64,000 nucleotides of DNA from NCBI RefSeq assembly GCF_013167455.1, contig NZ_CP038328.1; one strand, given 5' to 3'. The DNA comes from Escherichia coli O157:H7 (GTDB lineage: Bacteria > Pseudomonadota > Gammaproteobacteria > Enterobacterales > Enterobacteriaceae). Of the stretch, positions 48,322-51,300 are shown in pieces. The position numbers were made by a program. Numbering within the stretch: position 1 is the stretch's first letter; every line of letters begins with the position of its first letter.

Positions 48322-51300
48322 TGACAGAAAAGAAAAAGGCCACTCATGAGTGGCCAAAATTTCATCTCTGAATTCAGGGATGATGATAACAAATGCGCGT
48401 CTTTCATATACTCAGACTCGCCTGGGAAGAAAGAGTTCAGAAAATTTTTAAAAAAATTACCGGAGGTGGCTAAATGCCGTTGTTAGATAGCTTCACAGTC
48501 GATCATACCCGGATGGAAGCGCCTGCAGTTCGGGTGGCGAAAACAATGAACACCCCGCATGGCGACGCAATCACCGTGTTCGATCTGCGCTTCTGCGTGC
48601 CGAACAAAGAAGTGATGCCAGAAAGAGGGATCCATACCCTGGAGCACCTGTTTGCTGGTTTTATGCGTAACCATCTTAACGGTAATGGTGTAGAGATTAT
48701 CGATATCTCGCCAATGGGCTGCCGCACCGGTTTTTATATGAGTCTGATTGGTACGCCAGATGAGCAGCGTGTTGCTGATGTCTGGAAAGCGGCAATGGAA
48801 GACGTGCTGAAAGTGCAGGATCAGAATCAGATTCCGGAGCTGAACGTCTACCAGTGTGGCACTTACCAGATGCACTCGTTGCAGGAAGCGCAGGATATTG
48901 CGCGTAGCATTCTGGAACGTGACGTGCGCATCAACAGCAACGAAGAACTGGCGCTGCCGAAAGAGAAGTTGCAGGAACTGCACATTTAGTCAGTAAACTA
49001 TCTTCACAATTAATTGAAAAAAGCCAGTTCAAATGAACTGGCTTAGTTGTACTTAGTGCGCACCGCCTCCGCCGCCACCTGCGCCAAAGGGCGGTTTAGC
49101 AAACCACACCAGCCCCAGCAAGACGAGGAATATCCCGGCCGACATCCAGAAGATCTCATTGGCGGAAATAATCAGCCCCTGATTGGTGATCTGCTGGGCA
49201 ATCCAGCCTGATGCCTGCTGTTGTGTCATCCCAAGCCCTTCCAGTTGACTGTACATCGCCTGGGCATTCGGGTTGAACGGGTTTACCGACTCAGTCAACT
49301 GCGCATGGTGCATCGACTCGCGGTTGGTCCACATGGTTGTGGTTATCGACGTGCCGATAGACCCCGCCAGCGTACGCGTAAAGTTGGAGAGGCTCGATGC
49401 CGCCGCCAGTCGTTCCGGTGGCAAACCAGACAGCGTAATGGTGGTCAGCGGCATAAAGAAGCAGGCCACCGCAAACCCCTGGATAAACTGCGGCCAGGCC
49501 GACGCGCCAAAATCCATACCTGGTTCAAAGGTATAGGCACGCCAGTAGAAGCAGACGGCATACATAATAAAGCTGAAGGTTACCAGTCGGCGCATATCCA
49601 GTTTATGCGCGAAGCGGCCGATAATCGGCGACAGGATCACTGGAATAATCCCTACCGGCGCAGAGGCCAAACCTGCCCAGGTCGCCGTGTAACCGTAGAC
49701 CTCCTGCAACAACTGCGGCAGCAGAACAATCGCGCCGAAGTAGAGCATATACGCGAGGCTGATACACAAACAGCCGATGGTGAAGTTGCGCGACTTAAAC
49801 AACGACAGATCGACTATCGGGTTATCGTCGGTCAGCTCCCAGACGATCAGGAAGCAGATAGCCACCACCGCCACCACGGTAAGGATGATAATTTCCTGTG
49901 ATGAAAACCAGTCCAGCTCTTTACCGCGGTCGAGCATAATCTGCAGGCTGCCGATACCAATAACCAGCAGTGCCAGCCCCACGGCATCAATCCGCCGCCG
50001 TTCGGTGCGGGTTTCACGTCCGCGCAGAGTTTGCAGTGTCATCAACACCACCGCCACGCCAATCGGCACGTTGATGAAGAATATCCAGCCCCAGTGGTAA
50101 TTATCGCTGATATATCCGCCGAGGATTGGGCCGCAAATTGGCGCGACAATCACCGTCATCGACCACAACGCCAGCGCGATTGAGCGTTTGGCTGGCGGGT
50201 AATTATTCAGCAATAGACTTTGCGAAAGCGGGATCAACGGCCCGGCGACAATCCCCTGAATCACGCGGAAGAAGATCAGCATATTCAGGCTGCTGGAGAC
50301 ACCACACGCCCACGACGCAATAGCAAAGGCGATGGTTGACCAGAGGAACAGTTTCACTTCCCCGACGCGCTTTGCCAGCCAGCCGGTAAGCGGGATCGAG
50401 ATGGCATTCGCCACCCCGAAAGAAGTGATTACCCACGTTCCCTGGCTGAGCGATGAGCCAAGATTCCCGGCGATAGTGGGGATCGCCACGTTAGCAATGG
50501 TGGAGTCCAGCACCTGCATGAATGTCGCTAGTGACAGCGCAATCGTCATAATGACCAGTTGCGCGCCTTCCAGCGGTTTTTGCTGTTGCATCACACGCAC
50601 CTCTGGATTAGCCAGCGTTAGCTTTTACGATATCGTCGATCAGTTTATTGACAGGTGCCAGGCTGATTTCACGCGCGGTGCTTACCGCTACCGGAGTGGA
50701 ACGTACTTTATTTGCCAGTACCTGACCGTCACGGTTAGTGGTATTGACGCTCACCAGCGTGGATAAACCGATACGCAGCGGGTATTGCTCCAGCTGTTTC
50801 TGGTCCAGTTCGATACGCACAGGCAGACGCTGAACGACTTTGATCCAGTTACCGGTCGCATTTTGCGCCGGAAGCAGTGAGAACGCGCTACCTGTGCCCA
50901 TATCCAGACCAACCACTTTACCGGTGTATTTCACATCATCGCCGTAAATATCGGTGGTGATAGTGACCGGCTGACCGATACGCATATTGGCAATCTGCGT
51001 CTCTTTAAAGTTGGCATCCACCCACATATTGGTGGCTGGAACGACCGCCATCAGCGGCGTCGTTGGGCTAATTTGCGCCCCAGGCTGTACCGCGCGGCGG
51101 GAGACATAACCGGTCATCGGACTGACAATACGAGTACGCTCCAGCGCCAGCCAGGCGTTACGTACTTCGGTGGCAGCCTGTTGCACGGCAGGCTGATCTT
51201 CCAGTTTAGTCCCCAGAATCATCGCCTGATTGGCATTGTATTGTTGAATCGCGACGTCCAGTTGCGCCTGGGCACTGGTAACGGCGTCGCGGGCGTGTTG

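What the first reader, a model, noticed from the sequence alone, without database searches (positions are those of the whole stretch)
48325..48473. MicA sRNA with recognisable sigmaE promoter between gshA and luxS
The full MicA sequence is present antisense to the gshA-luxS direction, with its terminator hairpin abutting the gshA stop and a sigmaE-type -10 (TCTGA) upstream. This is well established, but it is a feature that six-frame ORF calling misses entirely; the MicA 5' region also overlaps the luxS 5' leader on the opposite strand.
Basis: partly seen in the sequence, partly recalled or inferred. Interest (0 to 1): 0.25.

Follow-up and report, generated by a model that had tools for sequence, protein, structure and literature searches.

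The report
MicA small RNA gene, confirmed
The stretch between the gshA and luxS genes holds the well-known E. coli regulatory RNA MicA with its envelope-stress (sigma-E) promoter, one harmless base different from the K-12 copy, so this is a correct but ordinary finding.

Summary
Confirmed and already known. Rfam's MicA model (RF00078) matches window 48334-48405 on the minus strand end to end, at 84.4 bits against a cut-off of 41. It is the only family hit in this region.

The K-12 micA gene (b4442, 73 nt) aligns to 48333-48405 (-) with one difference, MicA nt 60 C->U (window 48346). That base lies in the terminator tetraloop and the computed hairpin energy is unchanged.

The flanks are gshA (46768-48324, +) and luxS (48474-48989, +), so MicA runs antisense to both. 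Its annotated 3' end is 8 nt from the gshA stop codon.

The sigma-E promoter is present in the published geometry: -35 GAACTC (48438..48433), a 16-bp spacer, -10 TCTGA (48416..48412), a 6-bp discriminator and an upstream T-tract. In 112 distinct Enterobacterales loci, AAC at -32..-30 and TCTNA at -11..-7 never vary.

MicA nt 7-25 pair with ompA -22..-5 (-23.1 kcal/mol), and that target site is exact in 5418 of 5422 E. coli genomes that hold it.

The luxS-leader overlap is published for K-12, and the window is identical to K-12 from the gshA stop to the luxS start apart from the nt-60 base.

The stated coordinates (48325-48473) span the whole intergenic region, not the RNA alone. The window is O157:H7-type DNA. 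Interest is low.

The parts
48333..48405 (-). micA gene (MicA sRNA, 73 nt by the K-12 annotation; Rfam match 48334-48405)
   Evidence: RF00078 at 84.4 bits against GA 41, full length. One substitution relative to K-12 b4442.
48381..48399 (-). Single-stranded 5' target-pairing region (MicA nt 7-25), which pairs with the ompA translation-initiation region
   Evidence: Duplex with K-12 ompA -22..-5 at -23.1 kcal/mol; z -3.45; 4 of 2000 shuffles as good. Nt 1-26 are essentially invariant in 113 sequences, although nt 6-27 were fixed by the search pattern.
48362..48383 (-). Internal stem-loop (MicA nt 23-44)
   Evidence: Present in the MFE fold and in the consensus fold. The Rfam consensus structure matches it.
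48356..48361 (-). A/U-rich linker (AAUUUU) between the two hairpins; the presumed Hfq-contact region
   Evidence: Unpaired in the folds. Hfq dependence comes from the literature (PMC1851643 abstract). The exact contact site was not tested here.
48333..48355 (-). Rho-independent terminator: 7-bp G+C-rich stem (48338-48355) plus U-tract (48333-48337)
   Evidence: Terminator scan. Six stem pairs are invariant and the top pair switches A-U to U-A in 16 of 113 sequences.
48346..48346 (-). The only difference from K-12: MicA nt 60 C->U, in the terminator tetraloop (CACG -> CAUG)
   Evidence: hairpin -11.0 kcal/mol for both alleles. 308 of 5423 complete E. coli genomes with a match hold the window's exact 73-nt sequence.
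48412..48416 (-). Sigma-E-type -10 element TCTGA (-11..-7)
   Evidence: T-11, C-10, T-9 and A-7 are invariant in 112 distinct loci. Matches the published micA promoter description (PMC1851643).
48433..48439 (-). Sigma-E-type -35 element tGAACTc (-34..-28), 16 bp upstream of the -10
   Evidence: AAC at -32..-30 is invariant in 112 distinct loci.
48445..48457 (-). A/T-rich upstream (UP-like) element; the T-tract at -50..-45 is 48450-48455
   Evidence: T at -50..-45 is 87-100% conserved across 112 loci. The AT-rich element is noted in PMC1851643.
46768..48324 (+). gshA (glutamate--cysteine ligase, TTG start), convergent with micA
   Evidence: TIGR01434 at 915.7 bits. ORF. RefSeq annotation.
48474..48989 (+). 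luxS (S-ribosylhomocysteine lyase), divergent from micA; its Shine-Dalgarno GGAGG is at 48462-48466
   Evidence: NF002602 at 347 bits. Sequence.
48391..48473 (+). Short luxS 5' leader (species R3, also the De Lay & Gottesman start site), overlapping MicA nt 1-14/15 in antisense
   Evidence: Mapped in K-12 only (PMC2956633). The position is transferred to the window by sequence identity. Inferred, not measured here.
48142..48473 (+). Long luxS leader from the sigma-S-type P1 start (G at -332, inside gshA), antisense to the whole micA gene
   Evidence: PMC2956633. Window base 48142 is G, and the published primer sequences KU40/KU41A match window 48104-48144.

Best explanation
This is the micA gene. 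It encodes the ~72-nt Hfq-dependent small RNA MicA (formerly SraD) of the sigma-E envelope-stress regulon, here in an O157:H7-type E. coli chromosome.

Mechanism, with the basis for each step:

1. Under envelope stress or on entry into stationary phase, sigma-E RNA polymerase starts transcription at G 48405 on the minus strand. It uses the -35 GAACTC / 16 bp / -10 TCTGA promoter. The sequence is shown here; sigma-E dependence is shown in K-12 by others.

2. Transcription ends at the hairpin and U-tract at 48355-48333, just before the convergent gshA stop codon. The structure is shown here.

3. With Hfq, the unstructured 5' part (nt 7-25) pairs with the ribosome-binding region of ompA mRNA (-22..-5). 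This blocks translation and speeds mRNA decay, which lowers outer-membrane protein load. The pairing is computed here; the regulation comes from the literature, which also names phoP as a target.

4. luxS leaders are transcribed through the same DNA on the other strand, so MicA is also a perfect cis-antisense partner. In K-12 the MicA-luxS duplex is processed by RNase III. This step is literature only and is transferred by sequence identity.
For: Rfam MicA model: 84.4 bits against a cut-off of 41, full length, and the sole hit in the region.

Identity to K-12: 72 of 73 bases match the curated K-12 micA, and the 68-bp upstream region is 100% identical.

Synteny: gshA > < micA, then luxS >, as in K-12. 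luxS is divergent and adjacent in 113 of 114 loci from other Enterobacterales.

Promoter: AAC (-32..-30) and TCTNA (-11..-7) are invariant and the T-tract at -50..-45 is at least 87% conserved in 112 distinct loci. The spacer (-24..-17) and the region upstream of -55 are close to random. The distance to the luxS ATG varies from 67 to 123 nt, so the conservation is anchored on micA +1 rather than on luxS.

Fold: two hairpins, z -3.2 against shuffles. The consensus fold has the same structure, with one compensatory pair.

Seed and target: the seed-ompA duplex is -23.1 kcal/mol with z -3.45. The ompA site is exact in 5418 of 5422 E. coli genomes that hold it, including the O157:H7 strain whose micA region equals the window.

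Literature: sigma-E dependence, and Hfq-dependent translational inhibition of ompA (PMC1851643). cis action on luxS with RNase III, and phoP as a target (PMC2956633).
Against: Nothing in the data argues against it. The limits are these.

No expression data exist for this window.

Covariation support is thin: 2 of 18 pairs show any double change, and 13 never vary. The RNA is too conserved to show more, and the loci were collected with an exact 22-nt seed pattern, which forces conservation of nt 6-27.

The promoter pattern alone is not rare. It is expected 0.12 times per window, and 12 of 100 shuffles had a match.

According to the paper itself, the luxS cis-regulation had no detectable effect on LuxS protein.
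Confidence: 0.97

Rival explanations
1. The conserved intergenic sequence is primarily a luxS 5' leader or promoter element, or a cis-antisense regulator of luxS only, and the trans-acting MicA role is secondary.
For: luxS is adjacent and divergent in 113 of 114 loci. In K-12, luxS leaders run through micA and are processed in a MicA- and RNase III-dependent way (PMC2956633).
Against: Conservation is in exact register with the micA +1, while the luxS ATG sits anywhere from 67 to 123 nt away. The best-conserved part (nt 1-27) is the part that pairs with ompA, and the shortest luxS leader overlaps only 14-15 nt of it. MicA overexpression did not change LuxS protein. The two roles can coexist, and the published view is that they do.
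Confidence: 0.02
2. The region encodes a small protein: either the 48-aa ORF 48261..48407 (-) that starts at the ATG spanning MicA +1, or the 46-aa ORF 48346..48486 (+).
For: Both ORFs appear in the mechanical ORF list.
Against: The minus-strand ATG occupies -2..+1, so a transcript starting at G+1 lacks the start codon. That ORF also runs antisense into the gshA coding region. Homologues carry 1-, 2-, 4- and 5-nt indels in the loops, which would break any frame. The plus-strand ATG exists only because of the nt-60 substitution; K-12 has ACG there. It overlaps the luxS start out of frame.
Confidence: 0.005
3. The hairpin at 48338-48355 is simply the gshA terminator, possibly bidirectional, and the MicA-like match is incidental.
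For: The hairpin lies 13 nt after the gshA stop codon.
Against: On the plus strand the stem is followed by AAAATTTCATC, not a T-run. The terminator scan reports it on the minus strand only. A terminator would not explain the 50 conserved nucleotides 5' of it, the full-length covariance-model match, or the conserved sigma-E promoter.
Confidence: 0.005

Closest known systems
E. coli K-12 MicA (SraD; gene micA, b4442; Rfam RF00078)
   Same: Same locus (gshA-micA-luxS), same strand relationship and same length. 72 of 73 bases are identical. The promoter, seed, internal hairpin, linker and terminator stem are identical.
   Different: One base differs: nt 60 is U instead of C, in the terminator tetraloop. 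The predicted hairpin energy does not change. The window's exact sequence is in 308 of 5423 complete E. coli genomes with a match, and the 15 best matches listed for the 401-bp region include named O157:H7 strains.
MicA orthologues in other Enterobacterales (Salmonella, Citrobacter, Enterobacter, Yersinia, Serratia, Pantoea, Erwinia, Edwardsiella and others)
   Same: The 5' 27 nt, both hairpin stems, the sigma-E -35 AAC and -10 TCTNA, and luxS adjacency.
   Different: Loop sequences, linker length and promoter spacer vary. The top pair of the terminator stem is U-A in the window and 15 other sequences (including E. albertii and Citrobacter) and A-U in 94 others.
RybB, the other sigma-E-dependent, Hfq-binding omp-repressing sRNA
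   Same: Same regulon and the same logic. A sigma-E-driven sRNA uses a conserved 5' end to repress outer-membrane protein mRNAs (PMC1804206 abstract).
   Different: Unrelated sequence and a different locus. No RybB match was found in this window.
VrrA of Vibrio cholerae
   Same: [quoted passage not shown] It is a functional analogue.
   Different: It is 140 nt long, has an unrelated sequence, and does not strictly require Hfq (same abstract). It is not a family member.

Membership tests
MicA sRNA (Rfam RF00078) | Scores above the family's curated covariance-model threshold over the full model | tested here: met
   84.4 bits against gathering score 41; model positions 1-75 of 75; not truncated. 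Only hit at E<=1 in 47900-49100.
MicA sRNA (Rfam RF00078) | Conserved single-stranded 5' region able to pair with the ompA translation-initiation region | tested here: met
   Nt 1-59 are identical to K-12. Nt 7-25 pair with ompA -22..-5 at -23.1 kcal/mol, z -3.45. The ompA site is exact in an O157:H7 genome whose 401-bp micA region is identical to the window.
MicA sRNA (Rfam RF00078) | Architecture: internal stem-loop, A/U-rich linker, Rho-independent terminator | tested here: met
   MFE fold, consensus fold of 113 sequences, terminator scan.
MicA sRNA (Rfam RF00078) | Genomic position between gshA and luxS, antisense to both | tested here: met
   luxS is adjacent in 113 of 114 related loci.
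Sigma-E regulon promoter | -35 with conserved AA(C), ~16-bp spacer, -10 TCTGA-like with invariant C, ~6-bp discriminator, A/T-rich upstream element | tested here: met
   Window: GAACTC, 16 bp, TCTGA, 6 bp, then +1. Invariant across 112 loci. Matches the description in PMC1851643.
Sigma-E regulon promoter | Transcription actually depends on sigma-E (RpoE) | not testable with these tools
   Shown for K-12 by rpoE overexpression and a delta-rpoE mutant (PMC1851643). Inferred for the window because the promoter is 100% identical.
Hfq-dependent trans-acting sRNA | Binds Hfq and needs it for target regulation | not testable with these tools
   Stated for K-12 MicA in the PMC1851643 abstract. The sequence features, an A/U linker plus a terminator U-tail, are present.
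cis-antisense RNA of luxS | An overlapping transcript from the opposite strand exists and the duplex is processed | not testable with these tools
   [quoted passage not shown] From the gshA stop to the luxS start the window differs from K-12 only at MicA nt 60, and the published P1-flanking primer sequences match the window.

The most novel reading that the evidence does not exclude
The nt-60 C->U allele might not be neutral. On the plus strand it turns ACG into ATG at 48346, inside the long luxS leader. This creates a 46-codon upstream ORF (48346-48486) that overlaps the luxS start out of frame. Alternatively, the CAUG loop could alter MicA termination or stability. Either effect could subtly change LuxS/AI-2 or MicA levels in the O157:H7 lineage.
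Probability: 0.02. Interest if true: 0.3.

Novelty: already known. Interest (0 to 1): 0.07.

Why it matters
It matters mainly as a quality check. A reader with no tools correctly recognised a 72-nt regulatory RNA, its alternative-sigma promoter and its antisense relationship to luxS from raw sequence.

There is also an annotation point. RefSeq records of O157:H7 genomes that are identical in the stretches compared carry no feature at this position, so micA is missing from those records.

No new biology follows. MicA, its sigma-E control, its ompA and phoP targets and its overlap with luxS leaders are all published.

Tried and rejected
(1) Full-length MicA against 191 nt of the ompA leader with RNAduplex. 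This gave an unrealistic, heavily bulged 65-nt duplex that was not clearly better than shuffles (32 of 500 as good). I redid it with the 28-nt 5' region against ompA -50..+30, which recovers the published site.

(2) A control using loci where luxS is not next to micA, to separate promoter conservation from luxS-leader conservation. It could not be done, because 113 of 114 loci have luxS adjacent. The variable micA-luxS distance (67-123 nt) was used instead.

(3) Covariation as proof of structure. It is nearly uninformative: 13 of 18 pairs never vary, and only 2 show a double change.

(4) Sigma-70 scan. It found one weak plus-strand match (ATGATA-18-TATACT, 48383-48412), no better than shuffles. 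That match does not fit the published luxS 5' ends, so it was not pursued.

(5) Small-ORF readings of the region. Rejected; see the rival explanations.

(6) Two paper reading 'find' calls failed on term syntax, and one script failed on a file name. No information was lost.

Full report
**Observation**

The finding covers window 48325-48473. This is exactly the 149-bp gap between the stop codon of a 518-codon ORF (46768-48324, +) and the start codon of a 171-codon ORF (48474-48989, +). NCBIfam identifies the two ORFs as glutamate--cysteine ligase GshA (TIGR01434, 915.7 bits against a cut-off of 393) and S-ribosylhomocysteine lyase LuxS (NF002602, 347 bits against 197). emrB lies convergent downstream of luxS.

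A scan of the whole window against Rfam 15 gives a full-length MicA match (RF00078) at 48334-48405 on the minus strand: 84.4 bits against a gathering score of 41, E 1.1e-11, model positions 1-75 of 75. A permissive rescan of 47900-49100 at E<=1 finds nothing else. It occupies only half of that interval. The rest is its promoter and the luxS ribosome-binding region.

**Comparison with K-12**

The curated K-12 record annotates ncRNA micA (b4442) as 73 nt between luxS and gshA, antisense to both. A 201-bp stretch of the window spanning the whole intergenic region and its edges differs from K-12 at one base. That base is MicA nt 60 (window 48346), which is C in K-12 and U here. It lies in the four-base loop of the terminator hairpin, changing CACG to CAUG. 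The predicted hairpin energy is -11.0 kcal/mol for both alleles.

Of 5423 complete E. coli genomes with a match, 308 carry the window's exact 73-nt sequence. The other 5115 fall in the 95-99% identity band. Ten of the eleven non-identical rows sampled show 98.6%, which is one mismatch.

The 401-bp region is 100% identical to many genomes. Several of the 15 best records listed are named O157:H7 or O157. Over 31.8 kb the window is 99.98% identical to O157:H7 strain PV15-279. The window is therefore O157:H7-type chromosome.

**Anatomy of the RNA**

The minus-strand sequence from 48405 reads GAAAGACGCGCAUUUGUUAUCAUCAUCCCUGAAUUCAGAGAUGAAAUUUUGGCCACUCAUGAGUGGCCUUUUU.

- Nt 1-22 form an open 5' region.
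- Nt 23-44 form an internal hairpin.
- Nt 45-50 form an A/U-rich linker.
- A 7-bp G+C-rich hairpin followed by five U makes the terminator.

The single-sequence fold gives -21.2 kcal/mol with z -3.2 against shuffles. The terminator scan reports the hairpin on the minus strand only. The annotated 3' end (48333) is 8 nt from the last base of the gshA stop codon (48324).

**Promoter**

Upstream on the minus strand the sequence reads ...TTTTTTTAAAAATTTTCTGAACTCTTTCTTCCCAGGCGAGTCTGAGTATAT-G(+1).

- TCTGA occupies -11..-7 (48416..48412).
- GAACTC occupies -33..-28 (48438..48433).
- The spacer is 16 bp and the discriminator is 6 bp.
- An A/T-rich tract lies upstream.

Udekwu & Wagner describe the micA promoter in just these terms: 16- and 6-bp spacings, fully conserved 'AA' in -35, an invariable C in -10, and an AT-rich upstream element (PMC1851643). 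They also show that MicA rises on rpoE overexpression and is undetectable in a delta-rpoE mutant (PMC1851643).

As a bare pattern, GAACT-N15-17-TCTGA occurs once in the 64-kb window. It is expected 0.12 times, and 12 of 100 shuffles contained a match. The motif alone is weak evidence. Its exact register with the RNA 5' end, and its conservation, are what count.

**Related sequences**

They include Yersinia, Serratia, Rahnella, Hafnia, Edwardsiella, Erwinia, Pantoea, Tatumella, Citrobacter, Enterobacter and Kluyvera.

I lined up 112 distinct sequences, ungapped, on the MicA +1:

- A-32, A-31, C-30, T-11, C-10, T-9, A-7 and T-1 are invariant.
- T at -50..-45 is 87-100% conserved.
- The spacer (-24..-17) and everything upstream of -55 carry almost no information.
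- The -10 is TCTGA in 84 sequences, TCTTA in 20 and TCTCA in 8.

A luxS start (MP[LF]L[DE]SF) lies divergently upstream in 113 of 114 loci, at distances from 67 to 123 nt. The footprint is therefore anchored on micA, not on luxS.

A caveat applies. The loci were collected with an exact seed pattern, so conservation of nt 6-27 is by construction. Promoter conservation is not.

**Structure across species**

The consensus fold of 113 sequences reproduces both hairpins. The RNA is too conserved for covariation to say much: 13 of 18 predicted pairs never vary. One terminator pair switches from A-U to U-A in 16 sequences, including the window. Loop lengths differ by 1, 2, 4 or 5 nt, which is incompatible with a coding frame.

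**Target pairing**

The 28-nt 5' region, tested against K-12 ompA -50..+30, gives a duplex of MicA nt 7-25 with ompA -22..-5 at -23.1 kcal/mol. The z-score is -3.45, and 4 of 2000 shuffles do as well. This duplex covers the Shine-Dalgarno region.

The 68-nt ompA segment containing the site is exact in 5418 of 5422 E. coli genomes that hold it. That includes the O157:H7 strain whose micA region equals the window. Regulator and target site are both intact.

Hfq dependence, translational inhibition and the resulting ompA mRNA decay are taken from the literature (PMC1851643 abstract). phoP as a further target comes from PMC2956633.

**luxS overlap**

In K-12, Udekwu mapped three luxS mRNA species (PMC2956633):

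- P1 starts at a G 332 nt upstream of the luxS AUG, driven by a sigma-S-type promoter inside gshA.
- P2 ends lie within the micA region.
- The shortest species, R3, overlaps MicA by 14 nt in that study, or 15 nt in De Lay & Gottesman's mapping. R3 accumulates in a MicA- and RNase III-dependent manner.

In the window, -332 is position 48142 and the base there is G. The published P1-flanking primer sequences match 48104-48144.

The long leaders are antisense to the whole gene. The paper found no effect of MicA on LuxS protein level, so the physiological weight of this cis interaction is open. That question is a property of the known system, not of this window.

**Rivals**

- A luxS-only cis element does not explain conservation locked to micA +1, nor the ompA-complementary seed.
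- The small ORFs fail on several counts. The 48-aa minus-strand ORF has its ATG spanning -2..+1, so the transcript lacks it. The 46-aa plus-strand ORF has an ATG created by the nt-60 substitution. Indels in homologues break any frame.
- A plain gshA terminator does not explain the 50 conserved nucleotides 5' of the hairpin. The plus strand also lacks a T-run after the stem.

**Verdict**

The element is the already-known micA gene with its already-known sigma-E promoter.

The only departure from K-12 is one loop base, which is characteristic of a minority of E. coli genomes. Those seen here are O157:H7-type.

The one practical point is that RefSeq annotations of identical genomes carry no feature here.

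Interest is low.

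Noticed in passing
window 48346 (MicA nt 60): A single C->U difference from K-12 in the MicA terminator loop. The window's exact 73-nt sequence is in 308 of 5423 complete E. coli genomes with a match, and several of the listed exact matches to the region are named O157:H7. On the plus strand the change creates an ATG that opens a 46-codon ORF (48346-48486) running across the luxS start.
   Followed up: partly
window 48333-48405; RefSeq records NZ_AP018488.1 and others: PGAP-annotated RefSeq genomes list no feature under the micA match ('none'). This includes an O157:H7 genome whose micA is identical to the window's. The curated K-12 record does annotate the ncRNA micA.
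   Followed up: yes
window 48104-48144 (+), inside the 3' end of gshA: The published sigma-S-type luxS P1 promoter region and its start site are present. The G at -332 corresponds to window 48142. The primer sequences from PMC2956633 match here, so a luxS promoter sits inside the gshA coding sequence.
   Followed up: partly
window 55003-55080 (-): Rfam match to naRNA4 (RF02564; 76.4 bits against a cut-off of 59.5). This is a REP-type palindromic repeat element, and it lies between genes in the proVWX region according to the O157:H7 gene table.
   Followed up: no
window 44792-45420 (+): A tRNA cluster downstream of csrA. It has one tRNA-Ser followed by four tRNA-Arg copies that score identically, separated by repeated spacers.
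   Followed up: no
window ~36086-37047 (-) and ~37238: The glucitol/sorbitol PTS genes are broken. The srlE region is identical to the copy that RefSeq marks 'frameshifted' in O157:H7 PV15-279. The window also lacks one base (an A in PV15-279) at about 37238, which truncates srlA after about 124 codons. From my own knowledge, this fits the sorbitol-negative phenotype of O157:H7.
   Followed up: partly
L047 (MAG, Enterobacteriaceae) upstream of micA: This is the only one of 114 related loci without a recognisable luxS start next to micA. The expected ...GGCAT... reads ...GGGAT..., which could be a start-codon mutation or an assembly error.
   Followed up: no
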